Below are positions 29,117 through 37,823 of a DNA stretch of 64,000 nucleotides, in pieces; within the stretch, counting starts at the first letter, position 1; every line of letters begins with the position of its first letter. This DNA comes from a virus (lineage: Duplodnaviria > Caudoviricetes): the IMG/VR virus record IMGVR_UViG_3300024272_002379; one strand, written 5' to 3'. The notes under the pieces are model-generated. The model ran no database searches, had not been told where the DNA came from, and was given only the letters and a program-made list of their open reading frames with translations. Position numbers and translations under genes: made by a program.

Positions 29117-29872
29117 ATGAAAAAACATCTTTATACAGTACTGACCTTTATGGTCATTCTCGTAATATGGTACAATGCATCATTGATTGCAAATCCATTA
29201 TTCATTCCTAATCCACTAGCAGTGTGGAATGATTTTAAAATACTTGTATCAGATGGCTCTATCTTTATTCATCTTATTTATACCTTCAGGAGAATTATGG
29301 TTGCTACATGCTTATCAGGACTTGTCGCACTACCGTTAGGGTTATTGGTGCGTAATTTCAAAATAGCAAAAGCAACCATTTATCCTGTAATTATGCTATT
29401 ACGTTATATACCTGTAACAGCATTCTATCCATTGCTTATTATGTGGGTTGGTATTGAAGAGGAAATGAAAGTAGCTTTTCTGTTTATCGCATGTTTTGTT
29501 TACATGCTCCCATCAGTAGTTCTTGCTCTTGATGAAGTAAACGACCAGCTTATTGATACAGGATTGACTATTGGAATGAGTAAATTACAAACTATCACCA
29601 GAATTCAATTACCATCTACATTACCTAGTATTATGAACAGTTTTGTTATGATGGTTGGTATTGGCTGGACATATTGTGCAGTAGTAGAAACAATCAATGC
29701 CAAATATGGATTAGGCTACGTAATCCATCAGGCAACCGCTAGAGGTAAAACTGATTTGGTATTCATGGCTATTATTGCCATTATGATTGTTAGCTTTGTG
29801 TTTGATAACACTTGTAAATTTTTAATCCATAAGGTATTTAAATGGAGGTACGTTAATGATAAAACTAAATAA
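29117..29872 (+). CDS. ABC transporter permease (NitT/TauT/SsuC family)
   Basis: Multiple TM helices; LRYIPVTAFYPLLIMWVGI; EAA-like loop. Confidence 0.88.
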   Translation: MKKHLYTVLTFMVILVIWYNASLIANPLFIPNPLAVWNDFKILVSDGSIFIHLIYTFRRIMVATCLSGLVALPLGLLVRNFKIAKATIYPVIMLLRYIPVTAFYPLLIMWVGIEEEMKVAFLFIACFVYMLPSVVLALDEVNDQLIDTGLTIGMSKLQTITRIQLPSTLPSIMNSFVMMVGIGWTYCAVVETINAKYGLGYVIHQATARGKTDLVFMAIIAIMIVSFVFDNTCKFLIHKVFKWRYVNDKTK

Positions 29873-30452
29873 TGTATCAATAGGCTACAATTGTCTTGCA
29901 ATTCGGAAAGATTTAAATTATAATTTCCATCAAGGTAAGATTTATGGAATCTTAGGAGAATCAGGTTGTGGCAAGACAACATTGTTAAAGACCATTGCTG
30001 GATTAATAAGACCCGTGAAAGGCTCAATAAGATGTGATATTCCTAAAAGAGAAATTTACATGATGCACCAGTCTTACACATGTTTTGATTGGTTATCATG
30101 CTTAGATAATATCTTGATAACGGAACGCATCAAACATCATAAAATTACGGACGAAATTAGAAATAAAGCAATGGAAATGCTTAAGGCTGTTGGTCTTGAA
30201 GACCATGCAGACAAATACCCAACACAGTTATCTGGCGGACAGAGACAAAGATTAGCGTTAGCACGCACGCTATTCACTTCACCTAGACTGATTTTAATGG
30301 ATGAACCATTATCAGCATTAGATGAAGAAACCCGTACAGCAATGCAGGATTTAATCCTGGATATACATAAGAAAACCTATAACACAATCATCATGATTAC
30401 ACATAGCAAATCCGAAGCGGATAAAATGTGTGATGAGATTATTAACTTTTAA
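29856..30452 (+). CDS. ABC transporter ATP-binding protein
   Basis: GESGCGKT, LSGGQRQR, LMDEP, H-loop. Confidence 0.92.
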   Translation: MIKLNNVSIGYNCLAIRKDLNYNFHQGKIYGILGESGCGKTTLLKTIAGLIRPVKGSIRCDIPKREIYMMHQSYTCFDWLSCLDNILITERIKHHKITDEIRNKAMEMLKAVGLEDHADKYPTQLSGGQRQRLALARTLFTSPRLILMDEPLSALDEETRTAMQDLILDIHKKTYNTIIMITHSKSEADKMCDEIINF

Positions 30453-30466
30453 GGGAGGACAAAACA

Positions 30467-31015
30467 ATGGCTAGTTTTCTTGAAAGAATGGGCTTAGTTG
30501 AAAAAACTGAAGAAGAAACATTCGACTACGAACCAACTGAATATGAAGTAGAAACAGATGAATCTGTTGATGTAAACCTTGAAGGAGTATCCAAAGAAAA
30601 TTTACAGACAAATCTGATTTCTGAAATTTACAATGCGAATGGACTGTCTGATATGTCTAATTCTATTTTTAAAGCAGAAGAAATCAGCAAGAGTTTACCA
30701 GCTACAATGACAACTGAAGCAAAGAAAGCTTCTGTAGTAGGTATTCTTGGTTCATTCGGTCTTACAGTCGAAGGATTAATCGAAGATGCATCCACAAGAG
30801 CATTTATGCTCGGAGGAGCAGCAACACGTATTACAGAAGATAATACAGCAGTTATTAACGCAAAGAAATTAGAAATCGAAGAAGCGAAAAAGCTTATCGA
30901 ACAGTGCGAAAAGACAATCGCAGAACATGAACAGGTTATCGCTACATCCATGGATTTAATCGAGGATGAAGTAAAGCGTATCACTGGTCTTAAAGAATTT
31001 TTAGGAGGTAAGTAA
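30467..31015 (+). CDS. coiled-coil hypothetical protein in ABC/PspA operon
   Basis: GGGAGG SD; C-terminal coiled coil. Confidence 0.75.
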   Translation: MASFLERMGLVEKTEEETFDYEPTEYEVETDESVDVNLEGVSKENLQTNLISEIYNANGLSDMSNSIFKAEEISKSLPATMTTEAKKASVVGILGSFGLTVEGLIEDASTRAFMLGGAATRITEDNTAVINAKKLEIEEAKKLIEQCEKTIAEHEQVIATSMDLIEDEVKRITGLKEFLGGK

Positions 31016-31017
31016 TT

Positions 31018-31764
31018 ATGATTACTTTAACACAGATGATTTATGCTACCATAATCATTATTGTGGTAGTGGCATTAATTGTTTCAGGCAAATTACGTGC
31101 ATTAGGTAAGGCGTTTCTTAATCTTTTCGTGGAAGATTTAGCGGCATCTCCAGAAGGAGCTGAGGCTTTATTTAACCAGAAAATTGAAGAAGTTGAAGAT
31201 AAGTATCGTAAGGCTAACGATGTTTTCTCAAGAATCGCTGGTGAACGTACAAACTGCAAGAAACAGGTAGAGAATTTAAACGCTAGATTAAAAAGAGTAG
31301 AGTCTGTTTGTGAACAGTTAGCTCAGGCTCAGGATGTAGAAAGTTTAAAAATTAAAGCTTCTGAACGTGCAGAAATCGTAGAAGAAATTAAGCTTCATGA
31401 AGAAACATTAGTAACACTTGAAGCTGCATTAAAAGACGCAACTGAAGCAAGAAATGCTTGCGAAGAAAATCTTAACGAGCTGAGAAAACAGAAGAAACAG
31501 GTTGTTACAAAGATGAAACGTAACAGAGATATGAAGGCAGTTTATGATGACCTTAATGGCATCGGTGCTGGTGACCATACTTCTAAATTACTTGATAAAG
31601 TAATTGAAAGAGGTACTGATTTAAACAATCTCGTTACAGGTTCCAAAGAGGCTTATGATTCTAAGACCTCTACAAAATCAAGAAAGATTGACCAGAAACT
31701 CAGTGCTTCTGAAAACGATGCATATGTTCAAAGTTTACTGGGCAAGTACAGCAAAAAGTCATAA
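31018..31764 (+). CDS. PspA/IM30-like coiled-coil protein with N-terminal TM
   Basis: TM helix followed by a long coiled coil typical of the PspA family. Confidence 0.6.
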   Translation: MITLTQMIYATIIIIVVVALIVSGKLRALGKAFLNLFVEDLAASPEGAEALFNQKIEEVEDKYRKANDVFSRIAGERTNCKKQVENLNARLKRVESVCEQLAQAQDVESLKIKASERAEIVEEIKLHEETLVTLEAALKDATEARNACEENLNELRKQKKQVVTKMKRNRDMKAVYDDLNGIGAGDHTSKLLDKVIERGTDLNNLVTGSKEAYDSKTSTKSRKIDQKLSASENDAYVQSLLGKYSKKS

Positions 31765-31782
31765 CATCAGGAGGGAATTATT

Positions 31783-33378
31783 ATGAAACAGTACAGAATT
31801 ACAGGTAAGGCAAAAATTTTAATCATTGTCTTTGTTATTGTAGTATTGGCAGGACTTATCGGCGGTGGCTTAAAAACAGGCCTTATCAAAAACGACATCA
31901 AAGATGGTGGTAGTAATACAGTAGTATCTCAGGACAGCAATACAGGTTCTAACAAAAAAGAAGAATCTAATGCTACAGTAAAACCAGAAGTAACAGATAC
32001 AATTAACCTCTCATTAGATGAGTGGATTGGTTGGAAATCTATTGTAGATGCTAATGGTGATTTAACAACAGATGCAGAAGAAGCTTTTGCTTTAATGGGT
32101 ATCAATGTAAACATTCATGTTATGAATGATGCCACACAGTCAAGTAATGCATTAATCAAAGGTGATTTGGATGCTGCTGGTTATACAATCAACAGAACTG
32201 CATTCTTATCTTCTAAGTTTAAAAATGCTGGCGTAGATGTTGTAATGCCATTCATTACTAACTATTCTAACGGCGGTGACGGTATTATCGCAAAATCAAG
32301 TATCAAATCAGTTAATGACTTAGTTGGTGCTAAAATCGGTGTACCAGAATTCTCTGAGGCTCAGACATTAGTTGTTTGGTTTGTAAACAATTCTAACTTA
32401 ACTCAGGCAGAAAAAGATACAATTATCGACAATCTTATTATGTTTGCAACTCCAGATGAAGCCGCTAAAGCGTTCTTCTCAGGACAGGTTGATGTAGCTG
32501 CTACATGGGAACCATATTTAACACAGGCTGAAAATATGACAGATTGCCATATCTTATTTAGTACAGCAAGTTCTTCAAATCTTGTAATGGATGGTATCTT
32601 ATTCCGTAAGGATTTCGTAGATGCTAATCCAGAAACTGTAGAAAAATTCATTATGGCTTGTTTAATGGCTGCTGATAAATATGAAACAGATTTCGATGCA
32701 ATCAGAAAAGTTATGCCTATGTATTCTACAATGTCTGATGAAGACATTAAGGCAAACTGTGTTGCTGCTAAGTTAACAACATGGAAAGATAATGCTGATT
32801 TATTAAACGGAACTGCTAAGATTATGTACACAGACATGTGTGAAGTATGGCAGTCTATCGGTGAAGAAGTCGATGCAAGTATCGTAGATACTTTATTTGA
32901 TGATAAATACATTCAGAATATCGCTTTTAATTTCAGCAGTACAGATTCATCTTATGATACAGGTAAAACTCAGGTAACAGAAGAGAATAAACAGATTATT
33001 GCTGATACACAGGCATTACTTGGCGGTACAGCATCTGTAACATTCGAGAAGAATACAGCTAAATTCTCTGATTCTGCCGCTGCTTCTGCTGAACTTAATA
33101 AGTTTATTGAAATGGCAAAAGTACTTGACGGTGCTATTATCGAGATTGCTGGTAATACAGACCCAAATCCTAACAGCGACCCTCTCGATGAGTACAATAA
33201 GAAATTGTCTTCTCAGAGAGCTGAAGCTGTTAAGAATTACTTCATCATGAACGGTATTTCTGCTGATAGAATTGTTACGGTTGGTAACGGTTCAAGCAAT
33301 CCTATCGTTGATAACGATACAGAAGAGCATCGTGCAATGAATCGTCGTACAGACGTATCATTTAAAATTATTGAATAA
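31783..33378 (+). CDS. ABC substrate-binding protein (NMT1/SsuA-like) fused to C-terminal OmpA-like peptidoglycan-binding domain
   Basis: SNGGDGII...DVAATWEPY; IAGNTD...NKKLSSQRAEAVKNY...NRRTD. Confidence 0.85.
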   Translation: MKQYRITGKAKILIIVFVIVVLAGLIGGGLKTGLIKNDIKDGGSNTVVSQDSNTGSNKKEESNATVKPEVTDTINLSLDEWIGWKSIVDANGDLTTDAEEAFALMGINVNIHVMNDATQSSNALIKGDLDAAGYTINRTAFLSSKFKNAGVDVVMPFITNYSNGGDGIIAKSSIKSVNDLVGAKIGVPEFSEAQTLVVWFVNNSNLTQAEKDTIIDNLIMFATPDEAAKAFFSGQVDVAATWEPYLTQAENMTDCHILFSTASSSNLVMDGILFRKDFVDANPETVEKFIMACLMAADKYETDFDAIRKVMPMYSTMSDEDIKANCVAAKLTTWKDNADLLNGTAKIMYTDMCEVWQSIGEEVDASIVDTLFDDKYIQNIAFNFSSTDSSYDTGKTQVTEENKQIIADTQALLGGTASVTFEKNTAKFSDSAAASAELNKFIEMAKVLDGAIIEIAGNTDPNPNSDPLDEYNKKLSSQRAEAVKNYFIMNGISADRIVTVGNGSSNPIVDNDTEEHRAMNRRTDVSFKIIE

Positions 33379-33439: not shown

Positions 33440-33862
33440 TTGATAAAGAAAACTCAACCATATGAAAAGTTAGTGGATTATGTAAAGGACAATCCACAAA
33501 AAGGATTAACCATTCCACATACAGAAATTGAAACAATTATCGGAATTCCTTACAAAAGTAGCAGATACTCATATCATGTTACTAAGGCAAACGATAAATT
33601 AACACAGGTTTCATTAAGACTGGAACCAATTAACGGATTTGGTTACCGTATCATTCAGGATAATCAGTATGTTGACAGTATGCGTAAATCGTACAATATG
33701 GCAGTTAGAAACATTCAAAAAGCAAAATTCATTGCTGACAATACTGATGTTACAACTTTAAATGTTGGCGAACATATGGAATGGCATACTGTATCGCTAA
33801 AGATTAAGAACGCTCAAAGTGCATTAGATGCGATTTTACCAAAACCAACAAATATCCCATAG
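33440..33862 (+). CDS. winged-helix-like protein (candidate accessory gene of RAMP locus)
   Basis: TTG start with GGAGG SD; IPHTEIETIIGI...LRLEPINGFGYRII wing motif. Confidence 0.65.
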   Translation: MIKKTQPYEKLVDYVKDNPQKGLTIPHTEIETIIGIPYKSSRYSYHVTKANDKLTQVSLRLEPINGFGYRIIQDNQYVDSMRKSYNMAVRNIQKAKFIADNTDVTTLNVGEHMEWHTVSLKIKNAQSALDAILPKPTNIP

Positions 33863-33872
33863 GAGGGAACAA

Positions 33873-34334
33873 ATGGCAAACGAATATAATTATGATGCTG
33901 CGATAAAAGTAATTCTTGACGCATTTACAGTAGGAACAAATGTTACATATGAACAATTAGAAGTTGCAATGGGATTAAAATCTCCTATTACATCAGCAAC
34001 TCCTGCAAACAATTGTGCTCTTTCAAAACTTAAACGTCGTCTTAAAGAAGAACATGGCTTAGTTATGAAAAGTGCCAATGTAAAAGGTGGCGAAAACAAT
34101 TACTATGTCATTTCTAAAGTTAAAGATAATGTAATTAGCAAGAAAGAATCCAATTCAGATAAGGATTCTAATTATGAAGCTTTATCAAAAAACAATCAGA
34201 AACTCTACATGGAATTGGAAAATGCAAAAGCTGCTAACGCAGCATTACAGGAAAAATATATTGCATTGCAGGAAAAAGAACTGGAGTATATTACAATCAT
34301 CCAGTCTTTAATGGCTCTTGCAGGCATCGCATAG
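33873..34334 (+). CDS. winged-helix-like protein with C-terminal coiled coil
   Basis: VTYEQLEVAMGL...LKRRLKEEHGLVMKS...NYYVI. Confidence 0.65.
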   Translation: MANEYNYDAAIKVILDAFTVGTNVTYEQLEVAMGLKSPITSATPANNCALSKLKRRLKEEHGLVMKSANVKGGENNYYVISKVKDNVISKKESNSDKDSNYEALSKNNQKLYMELENAKAANAALQEKYIALQEKELEYITIIQSLMALAGIA

Positions 34335-34344
34335 GAGGTATTCT

Positions 34345-34845
34345 ATGGCAATAGTAGGAGAATGGATACCACAGTCTGGCTACAAAGGTAAAGCAGATGC
34401 AAACAAAGTAGCTTACGAAATTGAAACCATTGGAATCAGTAACACTACGGATGAGTTTAATACTCAGGAAATGGTAGATTATGCTCGTAATAATCCAGGG
34501 TCAGAATTACATAAGTTATTTGAATGGAACGATAGCGTTGCTGCTGAAGCATATCGAAATCAGCAAGCACGAGATATTTTACGTTTCTTAAAAATTACTG
34601 TTGTTGATGATACGACTCAGACTAAAAATCCTACATTAGTTAGGTATTTTGTTAGTACTGGTAATCATGATGGTATGTATAAGAAAACAGAACCTATATT
34701 CCAGAATGCTTCAGAAGCAGATAGGGTATTAGAAAATATGAGAAGAGACGCTGAAAACTTTATTAATAGATACAAAGCATATCTCAGTCTCAATCCAAAT
34801 TTATCTAACGCTATTACAGCTTTACAGGCAGTTGTTAATCCTTAA
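34345..34845 (+). CDS. conserved phage protein (LHxxFEWxDxxAAExYRxxQAR family), candidate accessory of RAMP locus
   Basis: MVDYARNNPGSELHKLFEWNDSVAAEAYRNQQARDILR; AGGAGG SD. Confidence 0.75.
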   Translation: MAIVGEWIPQSGYKGKADANKVAYEIETIGISNTTDEFNTQEMVDYARNNPGSELHKLFEWNDSVAAEAYRNQQARDILRFLKITVVDDTTQTKNPTLVRYFVSTGNHDGMYKKTEPIFQNASEADRVLENMRRDAENFINRYKAYLSLNPNLSNAITALQAVVNP

Positions 34846-34852
34846 GTTTTAT

Positions 34853-35567
34853 ACCTTGCTGTATATATATTGGCTTTAATTGGTCAATGAAAATACAACA
34901 AATTAGGACAAACCAATCCAGCAGAGAACATTATCAGCATACTACAGGACATAAGCAGGATAGGACATCACAAACGGCTCGTTAGAGCCTTTATATATAC
35001 AGCAAGGTTGTTGTATAAAGCTCATTATAGGACAGAATAGCTCATAGCAGATGATATCATTAAAATACATAATAACACAAAGTCTTTTATAATCTCTTAT
35101 ATGTATATCGACTTTAAATGCTTAGAGTCAATATACATGTAAGAGAGGACAGGACAACTCAGTGCATTTCTACCACAACAAATGACAATGTATAACAAAG
35201 CAGAGGGGCGATTTTCGCCCCATTTTTATGAATACATATATTGGCTTTAATGGTCAATAGAACAATACAGTGCAGAGCAGTATATAATAGCTCAGTTAAG
35301 AATACCATAGCATAACACAAATGGCTCTTAGAGCCTTTATATGTGTTCATAAATAGATATATTGACTTTAGCAGTCAATAAGCTCAAAAGACCGTAGAAC
35401 AGGACAGCTCATTACAAAGTAGTTCAGGTTAAAACAAGCGAAAACAAAGGCTCGTTAGAGTCAATGTATGTGTTTATGAAACACAAAAGCACAAAGACAG
35501 CATAATACATGTCAGTGCAACATAGGATATTACAAATCATTACAAAATCCTATTGAAAATCAATAGG
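34853..35567 (+). repeat. array of six 5-nt-periodic (NNNYA)n tracts separated by four conserved hairpin cassettes; candidate guide-RNA array
   Basis: Tracts at about 34891-34972, 35020-35079, 35147-35202, 35260-35319, 35382-35446, 35481-35544; cassette motif TATATTGRCTTTA...TTAGAGYC. Confidence 0.85.
35205..35228 (+). terminator. intrinsic terminator-like hairpin within the array
   Basis: GGGGCG-ATTTT-CGCCCC-ATTTTT. Confidence 0.6.
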
Positions 35568-35585
35568 TAGAAAGCGAGACGCATT

Positions 35586-36242
35586 ATGGCAGCTAAAGTT
35601 ACAGAAGAAGTAAAAGAGATTCAGAACAAAATTAATTTCGCTACAGCAACAATTACAATTGTTGGCGATAGTGACCTTATTCTTAACAAAATGAGAGATA
35701 GCACTACTCAGGAACTTGCAGATAAACAGGAAGGTAAAGTACAGGGTACAAAGAAACCTGTAAACATGTACGAGCATCTTGTTGGTTCCATTCATTGGCT
35801 CAAGGGAGAAGAAACAGACTATACAGAAGAAGGCTGGTTGAATGCATTAAAGAATAATGTTCCAGGTTATCCATCTTCAGGTATGAAGAAAGCATTATGT
35901 GATGCTGTTGTTCGTGTATTAGGCGAAACATATAGCACAAAGTTCAATGCTAACGTACAGATTCTTAATAGCTTCTTACCAATCGAATTTGGTTCAAGTG
36001 CTTATGATAAATCATTATTTAGCCCTCAGAAGGGTAGTCCAGTTCTTTGTTACAGAAATGTATTCAGAGATTGGAAAACAACATTTACAATTAAATATAT
36101 TCCAGACAATTATTCATTAGACCGTATCATCGAAGTTATTAACTGTGCAGGTTTTGCATGTGGTATCGGTAGCCACAGACCATCAAGTAAAGGTGGCTCC
36201 AACGGTATGTTCCACGTAGAATCCGTTATGGAAGTAGTTTAA
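35586..36242 (+). CDS. stand-alone RAMP/Cas7-like RRM-fold protein
   Basis: N-terminal strand TITIVGDSDLIL; PGYPSSGMKKAL helix; FRDWKTTFTI strand; C-terminal G-rich loop GFACGIGSHRPSSKGGSNGMFHV. Confidence 0.7.
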   Translation: MAAKVTEEVKEIQNKINFATATITIVGDSDLILNKMRDSTTQELADKQEGKVQGTKKPVNMYEHLVGSIHWLKGEETDYTEEGWLNALKNNVPGYPSSGMKKALCDAVVRVLGETYSTKFNANVQILNSFLPIEFGSSAYDKSLFSPQKGSPVLCYRNVFRDWKTTFTIKYIPDNYSLDRIIEVINCAGFACGIGSHRPSSKGGSNGMFHVESVMEVV

Positions 36243-36249
36243 GTACATA

Positions 36250-36980
36250 TGGGAAGGAAAACCCTATAATAAACCGCTAAGATGAAGGCAGACCAAGGCT
36301 GTTGCAGGACCTGAAAAGGCGTTCGCACTTAGATGTAATAAAAGCGAAGATTAGGAGACTCATATGCAAAACCCTGACATATGACATGGAGAAATACCGT
36401 TGAATGCAACCAGGTAGTTAAGATTTTATACCGACAGAAACGACCGTTACTGCGTAGCTCAAAGTCGGAAGTTTACTTAATTGAAATAAAAAACAAATAG
36501 AGAGCAAAGGTAACAGCTAAGATATTACGACCTCATGGGTGCCAACCACGCACACGAATCCGTATTAAATCTGACGTAGAGGCAAGTTCACTTAGATGCA
36601 ATCAAGAACTTTAGCGTGGGTGCTTCACAACTGCATAAATATTTTGAGAAGGAAAACTCGCTATCAAACCGCTAGGTTATGGGTCCCTTACCATGTTTAA
36701 AGACCTTGAACTCCTAGAGCGTAAGCATTTGTAACAAAAGTTTTAAAATTGAATAGTGGCTTTAGTGGTTTGATGGAAACCATCTCCCAGGAGGGGACTG
36801 GTGCGAATGAACCCAGGAGACAGGACTAACTCCTTACACCAGCGAGTCTTGAATTAGACCGCTCGGAGAAACGATGCCCAGCTAAGTTTTCAGAGGGATA
36901 AGGTATGCTTTGCAGGAAACCCTCGGTGCTGTTTGCCTATTTCTCCTACCAGGCTTCTTAGATGCAATAAAAAGACCGAT
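36250..36980 (+). ncRNA. structured ncRNA region with five tandem pseudoknot modules
   Basis: Covarying CTAAG/CTTAG, TTAAG/CTTAA and CTAGG/CCTAG pairs followed by TGNAAY-AAA. Confidence 0.6.
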
Positions 36981-37241
36981 AAAACAAAATAGGATATAGT
37001 TGGTAATATACGTAGTTTCGGGTTCGAGGAACCATTTTCTGTACCATCCACAGGAATAAACGAAGAGGAATTACAAGTACATTGGCGACAAGGTGTGCGA
37101 ACAAAGACGACCATTACAGTCATTCATGGTTAATCGTGTACAAAATGTATGAGAGTATCATATGCACTGCTCTCATACTACTTGTCGAACGAAATAAGTA
37201 TTGAAATATTTTTCAAATCTGTTACAATATATAACACATAT

Positions 37242-37313
37242 AGGGCTATCGCCAAGCGGTAAGGCACAGGATTTTGATTCCTGCATCCGTTGGTTCGAAT
37301 CCAACTAGCCCTG
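37242..37313 (+). tRNA. tRNA-Gln(UUG)
   Basis: GCCAAGCGGTAAGGC D-arm; CAGGA-TTTTGAT-TCCTG. Confidence 0.9.
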
Positions 37314-37398
37314 TTCATAGTGGTCAGTGTTAATGCACACTGTAAATAAAGTAGCCTCTCGATTGGCTTTCAATGGTCAGCTTTAACCACTATAACAT

Positions 37399-37573
37399 AC
37401 ACGGGTTGTCTGAGCTGGTGAGAGATGATATCTTATCAATAGGCCAGTGAACTAGGTGCCAACCACTCTGATTAGAGTAGGGACATGTGAAAGTTATAAG
37501 GGAAGGAACGCTGATACGTAGCATTGTTTTGGTAACTTGATGAGTAGTAGAGGTTCGATTCCTTGCCCGTGTG
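37399..37573 (+). ncRNA. tRNA-like RNA with a ~120-nt domain replacing the anticodon arm
   Basis: ACACGGG/CCCGTGT acceptor; GGTTCGATTCC T-loop; CTTATCAA/TTGATGAG internal stem. Confidence 0.55.
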
Positions 37574-37588
37574 TTAAAGACCAAGCAA

Positions 37589-37661
37589 AGGTAAGTAGCT
37601 CAGTTGGGAGAGCACCCTGCATTGAGCGGGGTCGTCGCAGGTTCGAGTCCTGCCTTGTCTT
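37589..37661 (+). tRNA. atypical tRNA (loop CATTGAG, nominal UUG anticodon without U33)
   Basis: TAGCTCAGTTGGGAGAGC D-arm, GCAGG-TTCGAGT-CCTGC T-arm, weak acceptor stem. Confidence 0.6.
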
Positions 37662-37823
37662 GATATAAGCTGAAGTCTTGAAGCCAAGTATAGTCATGCG
37701 GTGGGTGGATATTTACATTAGGTCCAATGAGATTAGACTTTAGTATCTATCAAATAGAACTGTTGACTAAAAATAATGCCCAGCAAAAACCATATGCTGG
37801 GCTATTTTATTGGAGGAAATTAT

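What the first reader, a model, noticed from the sequence alone, without database searches (positions are those of the whole stretch)
33440..36242. Candidate non-CRISPR RNA-guided system: stand-alone RAMP/Cas7-like gene plus pentamer-periodic array plus accessory genes
Seen: a co-oriented locus of two winged-helix genes, a conserved LHxxFEWxDxxAAExYR gene, a ~715-bp non-coding array of 5-nt-periodic variable tracts held between conserved hairpins, and directly downstream a 218-aa protein with RAMP hallmarks. No cas1/2/3/5/6 genes and no repeat-spacer CRISPR array occur in the window. Established: Cas7-type RAMPs polymerise along an RNA with a fixed nucleotide step per subunit. Inference: each tract is a guide RNA coated by the RAMP at one subunit per pentamer, with fixed bases bound by protein and variable bases reading a gapped target, for example to repress competing phages or host genes. 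From memory, and unverified here, this resembles recently reported phage RAMP plus GGY-NN repeat (VIPR-type) systems. The fixed motif here is YA-centred rather than GGY, so it may be an undescribed variant.
Basis: partly seen in the sequence, partly recalled or inferred. Interest (0 to 1): 0.95.

Follow-up and report, generated by a model that had tools for sequence, protein, structure and literature searches.

The report
Phage VIPR system with AYA-NN guides
A roughly 210 kb gut phage carries a divergent VIPR system, a CRISPR-like RNA-guided DNA silencer first described in 2026 preprints. Its five-letter guide repeats use a fixed A-Y-A instead of the published G-G-Y, and three guides spell conserved motifs of a rival-phage DNA polymerase, a restriction-system methylase and a pilus gene.

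Summary
The 218-aa protein (35586-36242) has a RAMP/Cas7 fold and is a sequence homologue of solved SUSP1 Vipr. The 740-nt non-coding stretch upstream holds six tracts of 5-nt repeats.

The repeat unit is NN-A-Y-A, not the published GGY-NN. The two G-loop residues that read the GG in SUSP1 Vipr are replaced across the family.

83 of 84 homologous loci carry the same kind of array on the same strand. 83 of 84 also carry the 166-aa upstream gene, a candidate accessory gene. The two "winged-helix" genes are not conserved with the module.

Read as "two bases on, one skipped", three window guides match conserved coding motifs:
- family-A DNA polymerase motif B of about 40-50 kb phages, 31/32 positions;
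- type I HsdM, 10 units exact;
- an RcpC/CpaB pilus gene, 24/24.

No match occurs in the phage itself.

Three tracts sit in cassettes closed by a covarying 24-bp stem on the + strand.

VIPR is already published, and a survey preprint lists non-GGY motifs that probably include this one read on the other strand. This scan has also seen VIPR guides against polymerase and restriction genes on other DNA. I rate it a new variant of a known kind.

The parts
34345..34845 (+). 166-aa conserved accessory gene (candidate vap), unknown fold
   Evidence: A homologue lies upstream on the same strand in 83 of 84 loci that encode the RAMP. Alignment A2 shows the conserved ELHKCFEW..AAE.YR motif. It matches phrog_15946 of unknown function. 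Pfam, PDB-sequence and fold searches gave no match.
34846..35585 (+). Non-coding guide (vrRNA-like) array: six NN-AYA pentamer tracts, three stem-closed cassettes, one empty cassette, one internal terminator
   Evidence: The same architecture is present in L001, L002, L081, L083 and L084. Rfam gave no match here.
34854..35007 (+). Cassette 1: 24-bp closing stem (34854-34879 with 34982-35007) around guide U1
   Evidence: The stem is the RNAalifold consensus and is supported by the pair counts on alignment A4.
34891..34972 (+). Guide U1, 16 units (two are 6-nt units). It decodes to family-A DNA polymerase motif B.
   Evidence: 31 of 32 NN positions match RQKGKIAELALGYGGS in phage polA genes. At least 117 IMG/VR contigs match a 24-base gapped pattern exactly. 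The target ORF hits PF00476. The window has no match.
35015..35079 (+). Guide U1b, without a closing stem. Units at 35020-35069 decode to the HsdM motif AFGDAYEYL[MI].
   Evidence: The 10-unit pattern matches at least 120 bacterial genome contigs exactly. All parsed hits lie in roughly 530-aa ORFs, and one checked ORF is N6_Mtase plus HsdM_N. The flanking units do not match, so the whole tract scores 24-25 of 30.
35094..35147 (+). Empty cassette: closing stem and fused handles with no tract
   Evidence: I read this from the sequence. The homologous cassette in L002 holds a full tract.
35147..35229 (+). Conserved 11-unit tract followed by an intrinsic terminator (stem 35205-35221, then a T run)
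   Evidence: The tract is conserved in L001 and L002, whose terminator stems keep pairing despite sequence changes. The terminator scan found it. No target was found.
35225..35353 (+). Cassette 3: closing stem around guide U3 (35260-35319, 12 units). U3 decodes to an RcpC/CpaB pilus-assembly gene.
   Evidence: The + strand folds at -38.1 kcal/mol, z -5.6. U3 matches 24/24 NN positions in 13 low-GC metagenome contigs, several labelled human gut, and 23/24 in 4 more. The target hits RcpC PF16976, and the L342 copy lies beside T2SSE and T2SSF genes.
35346..35480 (+). Cassette 4: closing stem around guide U4 (35382-35446, 13 units), target not found
   Evidence: The stem is supported by alignment A4. 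Two IMG/VR scans with different parts of the guide gave no hits.
35490..35567 (+). Conserved leader tract (11 units, 35490-35544) plus hairpin 35549-35567 just before the RAMP gene
   Evidence: It is conserved in L001 and L002. No target was found, and there is no self-match in the window.
35586..36242 (+). Vipr-family RAMP gene, 218 aa
   Evidence: The family profile hits PDB 36pp 'SUSP1 Vipr protein' at E 1.8e-5. 13 of 48 homologues hit Pfam RAMPs. The AF2 model matches Csm3 by Foldseek. The protein is 25% identical over 90% of its length to the Vipr-like protein of Pseudomonas phage LESphi2, which sits next to a canonical GGY-NN array.

Best explanation
This is a VIPR-type RNA-guided DNA-recognition system of a roughly 210 kb gut phage.

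Shown here:
- The operon has three parts: a 166-aa accessory gene, a guide array and a vipr-family RAMP gene.
- The array forms conserved RNA structure on the + strand. Three guide tracts each sit in the loop of a 24-bp covarying stem.
- Each tract is a run of 10-16 units of the form NN-A-Y-A.
- Read as NN plus one skipped base, guides match conserved codon positions 1-2 of genes that the phage itself lacks. These genes are the polA of rival 40-50 kb phages, type I hsdM, and a Tad-pilus rcpC/cpaB gene.

Inferred by homology with SUSP1 VIPR:
- One Vipr protomer binds each unit. It sequesters the fixed triplet and presents the NN bases.
- The NN bases pair with one DNA strand while every third base is skipped.
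- The bound filament blocks transcription.

Further inferences:
- The changed fixed triplet (AYA instead of GGY) goes with replacement of the two G-reading residues of the G-loop.
- The cassette stems are cut by a double-strand-specific RNase such as RNase III to release the guides.
For: Protein:
- It has a RAMP fold.
- Its family profile matches solved SUSP1 Vipr at E 1.8e-5.
- It aligns pairwise with the LESphi2 protein that sits beside a canonical GGY-NN array.

Array:
- The period-5 signal has z up to 9.8.
- The logo is N, N, A (64-68%), Y (82-85%), A.
- 83 of 84 homologous loci have a perfect A-phase run of 12 or more units within 1.6 kb upstream. Over 688 kb there are 314 A runs and 0 T runs.

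Strand:
- The closing stems hold 210 Watson-Crick pairs, 13 G-U pairs and 0 A-C pairs on the + strand.
- Pairing is kept in 98.9% of cells, 61 cells show a compensatory change, and 0 of 500 shuffles reach this.
- The + strand folds at z -5.6 and the - strand at z -2.3.
- There is a + strand terminator.

Code and targets:
- U1 matches polA motif B at 31/32 positions, with at least 117 exact contig hits.
- U3 matches at 24/24 positions.
- U1b matches 10 units exactly in at least 120 genomes.
- Five other 20-base patterns from the same array gave 0, 0, 0, 0 and 1 hits in IMG/VR.
- Only NN at positions 1-2 with skip 1 gives matches of 0.95 or better; other registers and skips gave at most one at 0.9.
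- Independent guides from other clades hit other motifs of the same polA gene, for example L017 at 29/30.

Self-avoidance:
- The window holds no match above chance.
- Two complete related genomes have no polA homologue.

G-loop:
- The position of SUSP1 D177 is S or A in 48 of 48 homologues.
- The position of W178 is G, H or R in 48 of 48.
- The position of R179 is R in 45 of 48.
- The roles of these residues come from 10.64898/2026.04.26.720927.
Against: - There is no expression or binding data.
- Three of the six tracts (U4, the conserved tract and the leader) have no identified target.
- The HsdM match covers only 10 of 15 units.
- The accessory protein has no recognisable fold, so its role is open.
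- Silencing rather than cleavage is assumed from the SUSP1 system.
- RNase III processing is an inference from the stem geometry alone.
Confidence: 0.85

Rival explanations
1. The guides are transcribed from the - strand, with unit TRT-NN, and act as antisense RNAs against mRNAs in the manner of type III CRISPR backbones. They would not act on DNA.
For: 8 of the 9 high-scoring guide matches have the + strand of the array in the sense orientation of the target ORF, so a - strand RNA would be complementary to the mRNA. The closest structural neighbours are Csm3 subunits of RNA-targeting complexes. TRT-NN resembles the TGH/NN and WGT/NN motifs listed in 10.64898/2026.10.21.760802.
Against: The stems contain 13 G-U and no A-C pairs on the + strand, and an invariant U-G pair would become C-A on the - strand. 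The + strand folds much better. The intrinsic terminator works in the + direction. The array is co-oriented with the genes in all 84 loci.
Confidence: 0.06
2. The RAMP is an orphan Cas7 that borrows crRNAs from a host CRISPR array, or has a different RNA-binding role, and the periodic array is an unrelated regulatory leader.
For: The fold is closest to Csm3. No direct binding data exist.
Against: The array and the gene are linked in 83 of 84 loci across 42-94% protein identity. The sequence profile matches Vipr, not Cas7 families. No cas1 gene or CRISPR array is present. The tracts decode to conserved foreign genes.
Confidence: 0.03
3. The system is a working VIPR, but only against rival mobile elements. 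On this view the HsdM and RcpC/CpaB matches aim at copies carried by competing phages, plasmids or integrative elements, not at host defence or host surface structures.
For: Published VIPR targets are satellites, prophages and other VIPR loci (10.64898/2026.04.26.720920 and 10.64898/2026.10.15.759431). One RcpC target lies beside IS110 transposase genes. Silencing hsdM after infection would not remove enzyme that is already made.
Against: The HsdM motif hits are in chromosomal contigs of many phyla. In L342 the pilus gene lies in an ordinary Tad-type locus with T2SSE and T2SSF genes. Neither point excludes a mobile origin.
Confidence: 0.35

Closest known systems
VIPR systems, type II exemplars Escherichia phage SUSP1 and Pseudomonas fulva prophage (bioRxiv 10.64898/2026.04.26.720920 and 10.64898/2026.04.26.720927)
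   Same: Both are phage-encoded and have a single small RAMP homologous to Vipr plus one adjacent accessory gene. Neither has cas genes or a CRISPR array. Guides are 5-nt units with three fixed and two variable bases followed by a conserved 3' handle. Targets are read two bases on and one skipped, aligned to the codon wobble. Guides converge on a rival element's essential gene.
   Different: The fixed triplet is A-Y-A, not G-G-Y. The G-reading residues D177 and W178 are replaced by S/A and G/H. The array lies between the accessory gene and vipr. Three guides sit in loops closed by a 24-bp covarying stem instead of ending in a pseudoknot tail. Two guides match host-type genes (hsdM, rcpC/cpaB).
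Non-canonical VIPR-like arrays in the genomic-language-model survey (bioRxiv 10.64898/2026.10.21.760802: GAC/NN, CAC/NN, WGT/NN, TGH/NN)
   Same: Both are period-5 arrays with a non-GGY fixed triplet next to a Vipr-like fold. TGH/NN and WGT/NN are compatible with the reverse complement of NN-DCA and NN-ACW, that is, of the unit seen here.
   Different: That report gives motifs only, with no strand assignment, targets or processing structure in the text held. Its figure S10 is not held, so I could not verify identity with this family.
Class 1 CRISPR backbone subunits (Cas7/Csm3)
   Same: Both have an RRM core, a glycine-rich loop and a thumb. Foldseek E values start at 8.9e-7, with 80 matches at E <= 0.001. 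Both polymerise along a guide with a fixed step, though for this protein that is inferred.
   Different: There are no partner Cas subunits, no repeat-spacer array and no adaptation genes. The step is 5 nt with three bases sequestered, not 6 nt with one flipped.
Wobble-aligned targeting of a catalytic motif (SUSP1 vrRNA4 on the satellite recombinase, bioRxiv 10.64898/2026.10.15.759431)
   Same: Guides read codon positions 1-2 of an invariant catalytic motif, so escape needs an amino-acid change.
   Different: Here the motifs are polymerase motif B, an HsdM motif and a pilus-assembly motif, and the footprints are longer (10-16 units against 6).

Membership tests
VIPR (Vipr + vrRNA + vap) | Effector is a small stand-alone RAMP (RRM core, G-loop, thumb) | tested here: met
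   The AF2 model has pLDDT 85.9 and its best Foldseek match is Csm3 6xn3_F at E 8.9e-7. 13 of 48 homologues hit PF03787.
VIPR (Vipr + vrRNA + vap) | Sequence homology to a characterised Vipr protein | tested here: met
   The family profile matches PDB 36pp 'SUSP1 Vipr protein' at E 1.8e-5. The protein is 25% identical over 90% of its length to the LESphi2 protein that flanks a GGY-NN array.
VIPR (Vipr + vrRNA + vap) | Adjacent tandem 5-nt repeats with fixed and variable positions, and no CRISPR array or cas genes | tested here: met
   Supported. The window has no CRISPR-like repeats and two complete relatives have no Cas1.
VIPR (Vipr + vrRNA + vap) | Fixed triplet GGY, or the published variants NNNGG, YNNNG, NNNNG | tested here: not met
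   The unit is NN-A-Y-A. The last A is present in 95% of units, Y in 82-85% and the first A in 64-68%. G is rare at all three fixed positions.
VIPR (Vipr + vrRNA + vap) | G-loop residues that read the GG (SUSP1 D177, W178) and R179 | tested here: not met
   The aligned positions are S/A and G/H/R in all 48 homologues. Only R179 is kept, in 45 of 48.
VIPR (Vipr + vrRNA + vap) | Targets specified by NN with one skipped base per unit | tested here: met
   Computationally, U1 matches at 31/32, U3 at 24/24 and U1b at 20/20. The control patterns gave 0-1 hits, and alternative skips and registers gave no comparable matches.
VIPR (Vipr + vrRNA + vap) | Invariable structured extension 3' of the repeat tract | tested here: met
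   A conserved 3' handle sits in fixed register with the last units. It pairs with the 5' handle. I did not look for a pseudoknot.
VIPR (Vipr + vrRNA + vap) | Accessory vap gene of one of the six described families | tested here: inconclusive
   A conserved 166-aa neighbour is present in 83 of 84 loci. Its fold is unassigned, with only weak winged-helix-like rows. No vap sequences were available to compare.
VIPR (Vipr + vrRNA + vap) | vrRNAs are expressed and co-purify with Vipr; the target is repressed | not testable with these tools
Class 1 CRISPR-Cas effector (Cas7/Csm3) | Encoded with other Cas subunits and a repeat-spacer array | tested here: not met
   Supported. The neighbouring genes are unrelated to cas genes.

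The most novel reading that the evidence does not exclude
A gut-phage VIPR lineage has re-specified the fixed triplet of the guide from GGY to AYA, through S/A and G/H in place of the D and W of the G-loop. This would give an orthogonal protein-RNA scaffold. The lineage also aims guides at host-type genes as well as rival phages: type I restriction hsdM and a Tad-pilus assembly gene. That would make VIPR an RNA-programmed tool for anti-defence and for shutting down a receptor or surface structure.
Probability: 0.4. Interest if true: 0.75.

Novelty: new variant of a known kind. Interest (0 to 1): 0.55.

Why it matters
- If the AYA-reading Vipr works as inferred, it shows that the fixed triplet of the VIPR code can evolve along with two G-loop residues. 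That would give a second scaffold, orthogonal to GGY systems, for programmable DNA binding.
- The stem-closed cassettes suggest a way of processing guides that differs from the described tails, staggered arrays and hammerhead arrays.
- Guides that spell HsdM and pilus-assembly motifs would extend the known use of VIPR from fights between mobile elements to manipulation of host defence and surface structures.
- Several clades converge on the polymerase of one group of temperate-size phages. This gives a concrete, testable rivalry in the gut virome.

Tried and rejected
Things that could not be run:
- No whole genome is held for this window.

Searches that found nothing useful:
- Rfam at E <= 1 found only the two tRNAs. 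There was no hammerhead or other ribozyme in the array.
- No targets were found for guide U4 (two sub-patterns), the conserved tract or the leader tract.
- U3 gave a single high-GC antisense hit in IMG/VR, which I treat as chance.
- The first target scan against the family loci themselves found nothing.

The 166-aa accessory protein:
- Pfam, PDB sequence profile, Foldseek, VIA-align wide and the protein atlas gave no informative match.

Readings I rejected:
- I rejected a protein-coding reading of the array, because it has period 5 and no + strand ORF.
- I rejected A-tract DNA curvature, because the tracts decode to foreign coding motifs and their flanks covary as RNA.
- I did not include the two upstream 'winged-helix' genes in the system, because they are not conserved with the module.

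Other:
- An ungapped handle-pattern search of two related genomes found only one site each, because other handles carry 1-nt indels. It was not informative.
Full report
**What is there.**
Four co-oriented + strand ORFs lie at 33440-33862, 33873-34334, 34345-34845 and 35586-36242. Between the last two is a 740-nt stretch with no + strand ORF. Inside it are six A-rich tracts.

The tracts are strongly periodic. Base autocorrelation peaks at lags 5, 10 and 15, with z of 9.8, 6.6 and 5.1 for A and similar values for C. A segmentation into 5-nt units scores about 14 standard deviations above shuffles. In the whole 64 kb window, perfect A-phase runs of 11 or more units occur only here, and there are none for T, C or G.

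**The protein.**
The 218-aa product has at least 180 relatives at E <= 0.001 in public data, almost all unnamed.
- A profile of 48 of them matches one solved structure, PDB 36pp 'SUSP1 Vipr protein', at E 1.8e-5 over the C-terminal glycine-rich-loop region.
- 13 of the 48 reach Pfam RAMPs.
- The AlphaFold model (pLDDT 85.9, pTM 0.81) matches Csm3/Cas7 subunits, with the best Foldseek hit 6xn3_F at E 8.9e-7 and 80 matches at E <= 0.001.
- Among isolated phages the only hit is a hypothetical protein of Pseudomonas phage LESphi2: 25% identity, 90% coverage, E 3e-7 against the database and 1e-14 pairwise.
- The region upstream of that LESphi2 gene is a canonical GGY-NN array.

The window protein is therefore a true homologue of canonical Vipr.

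**What VIPR is.**
VIPR is described in 2026 preprints.
- A Vipr RAMP polymerises on a vrRNA made of GGY/NN pentamers.
- It sequesters the GGY and presents the NN.
- It binds double-stranded DNA while skipping every third base, and so silences transcription.
- Seven types are listed, with the repeat variants NNNGG, YNNNG and NNNNG.

**The repeat unit.**
In the window and its closest relatives the logo is:
- N: purine-biased
- N
- A: 64%
- Y: 85%
- A: 95%

Over 158 guides from the wider family, the third position is A in 68% and the fourth is C or T in 82%. The architecture is thus three fixed plus two variable bases, as in VIPR, but the fixed triplet is A-Y-A.

The residues that read the two Gs in SUSP1 are D177 and W178. 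They align to S196 and H197 here. Across 48 homologues those positions are S/A and G/H/R, never D or an aromatic residue, while R179 is kept in 45 of 48. This fits a change in fixed-base specificity, but the link is inferred.

**Linkage.**
In 84 loci encoding homologues of 42-94% identity:
- 83 have a perfect A-phase run of 12 or more units within 1.6 kb upstream of the gene, always on the coding strand. There are 314 A runs and 0 T runs in 688 kb.
- The 166-aa gene is present upstream on the same strand in 83 of 84.
- The 140-aa and 153-aa genes are present in 3 and 0.

The conserved module is accessory gene, array, vipr. The accessory protein has no assignable family or fold.

**Strand and RNA structure.**
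Three window tracts (U1, U3, U4) sit in cassettes whose two flanks pair with each other. An alignment of 15 cassettes from five phages gives a 24-bp helix, made of 16 outer pairs, a 2x2 internal loop and 8 inner pairs.
- 98.9% of cells are paired.
- 13 pairs and 61 cells show changes on both sides.
- 0 of 500 shuffles reach this, and sliding the partner by 1-3 columns leaves 27-56% paired.
- Scored symmetrically, the outer stems hold 210 Watson-Crick pairs, 13 G-U pairs and no A-C pairs on the + strand.
- One U-G pair is invariant.
- The + strand cassette folds at -38.1 kcal/mol (z -5.6) and the - strand at -29.5 (z -2.3).
- A strong + strand intrinsic terminator follows a conserved tract. Its stem keeps pairing in relatives despite sequence changes.

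The RNA strand is therefore the + strand.

Other features of the cassettes:
- The tract register is fixed relative to the 3' handle.
- A long stem closing each guide loop looks like a substrate for a double-strand-specific RNase. That is inference.
- Some changes also fit local hairpins within each handle, so the handles may refold after cutting. This agrees with another first-stage note on this stretch.

**The code and its targets.**
The purine bias at the first variable position resembles the composition of first codon positions (from general knowledge).

*U1.* Its 16 units decode to K-[HQ]-K-G-K-I-A-[DE]-[FL]-A-L-G-Y-G-G-S.
It matches nothing in the window.
- The hits lie in motif B of a 652-aa family-A DNA polymerase of roughly 40-50 kb phages.
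- The full guide matches 31 of 32 positions, with its two 6-nt units each counting as one unit.

*U3.* It matches 24/24 positions in 13 low-GC metagenome contigs, several labelled human gut, and 23/24 in 4 more. The target is an RcpC/CpaB-type pilus assembly gene, and the one copy I checked (L342) lies in a Tad-type locus.

*U1b.* I followed a lead from another first-stage note. It matches the HsdM motif AFGDAYEYL[MI] exactly over 10 units in at least 120 bacterial genomes of many phyla. The flanking units do not match, so the whole tract scores 24-25 of 30.

*Controls.*
- Five other 20-base patterns from this array gave 0, 0, 0, 0 and 1 hits in IMG/VR.
- In a 1 Mb set of polA loci, only NN at positions 1-2 with one skipped base gave matches of 0.95 or better; other registers and skips gave at most one at 0.9.

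*Independent guides.* Guides from other clades hit other conserved parts of the same polymerase:
- L017 at 29/30 (QFYGANRTGRWAGRI);
- L001 at 30/34;
- L038 at 20/22;
- L084 at the C-terminus.

*Self-avoidance.*
- The window has no self-match above shuffled-unit controls.
- Two complete related genomes (210,290 and 208,433 bp) have no polA homologue.

*Orientation.* 8 of 9 high-scoring matches are in the sense orientation of the target ORF. A + strand guide would therefore pair with the template DNA strand and could not pair with the mRNA.

**Guide turnover.**
- Between phages whose Vipr proteins are 84-89% identical, the handles are nearly identical but the tracts are unrelated.
- The one shared guide, U1 and its L081 counterpart, differs by a 5-nt unit indel and a synonymous Leu change (TT against CT) at the variable positions. 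Most of the other changes fall in the fixed triplet.
- The window also has an empty cassette (35094-35147) where L002 has a full one.

**Comparison and novelty.**
The kind is known.
- VIPR, its skip rule and wobble-aligned hits on catalytic motifs are in print.
- A survey preprint reports 21 clusters with non-GGY motifs, including TGH/NN and WGT/NN. These fit the reverse complement of this unit. I could not check the figure.
- This scan has also reported VIPR guides against polymerase motif B and type I restriction genes on other DNA.

What appears new:
- the strand-assigned A-Y-A code, together with the matching G-loop substitutions;
- evidence that the one-base skip rule holds in this lineage;
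- the stem-closed cassettes;
- the set of targets.

No expression or binding data exist, and three tracts have no known target.

Noticed in passing
window 36250-36980: About 1 kb of non-coding DNA downstream of the RAMP gene holds repeated modules bracketed by CTAAG...CTTAG, each followed by an A-rich tail. It is conserved in L081 but replaced by other sequence in L001 and L002, and it has no Rfam match. It is not linked to the VIPR module across the family.
   Followed up: partly
window 37241-37314 and 37588-37662: There are two tRNA-Gln (UUG) genes. Between them, 37359-37382 resembles the 5' handle of the guide cassettes, and a T-arm-like GGTTCGATTCC lies near 37553. ARAGORN calls no gene there.
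   Followed up: partly
window 34931-34936 and 34952-34957: Guide U1 contains two 6-nt units (NN-ATCA and NN-AGCA), yet the target register is kept at 31/32. The homologous guide in L081 has ordinary 5-nt units at both places. An extra base in the fixed segment seems to be tolerated.
   Followed up: partly
window 35094-35147: This is an empty cassette: closing stem and fused handles with no guide. The homologous cassette in L002 is full. It may be a footprint of guide loss or exchange.
   Followed up: partly
family-wide (L001, L017, L030, L038, L081, L084 and the window): 8 of 9 strong guide-target matches are in the sense orientation of the target gene. The published description reports targets on both strands.
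   Followed up: partly
window 29117-33378: Just upstream of the locus the phage carries transporter-like genes. The 198-aa ORF at 29856-30452 has Walker A and LSGGQ motifs of an ABC ATPase. The 531-aa ORF at 31783-33378 ends in an OmpA-like motif. L083 has BPD_transp_1 and ABC_tran genes next to its VIPR locus.
   Followed up: no
L343 2050-2420 (Pseudomonas phage LESphi2, OQ594955.1): A canonical GGY-NN array lies directly upstream of an unannotated Vipr-like gene, near the cI/cro region of this clinical-isolate prophage.
   Followed up: no
L323 4456-11380: One copy of the RcpC/CpaB target gene lies next to split IS110-family transposase ORFs, an AAA ATPase plus subtilase pair and an HTH regulator. 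This suggests a variable or mobile region.
   Followed up: no
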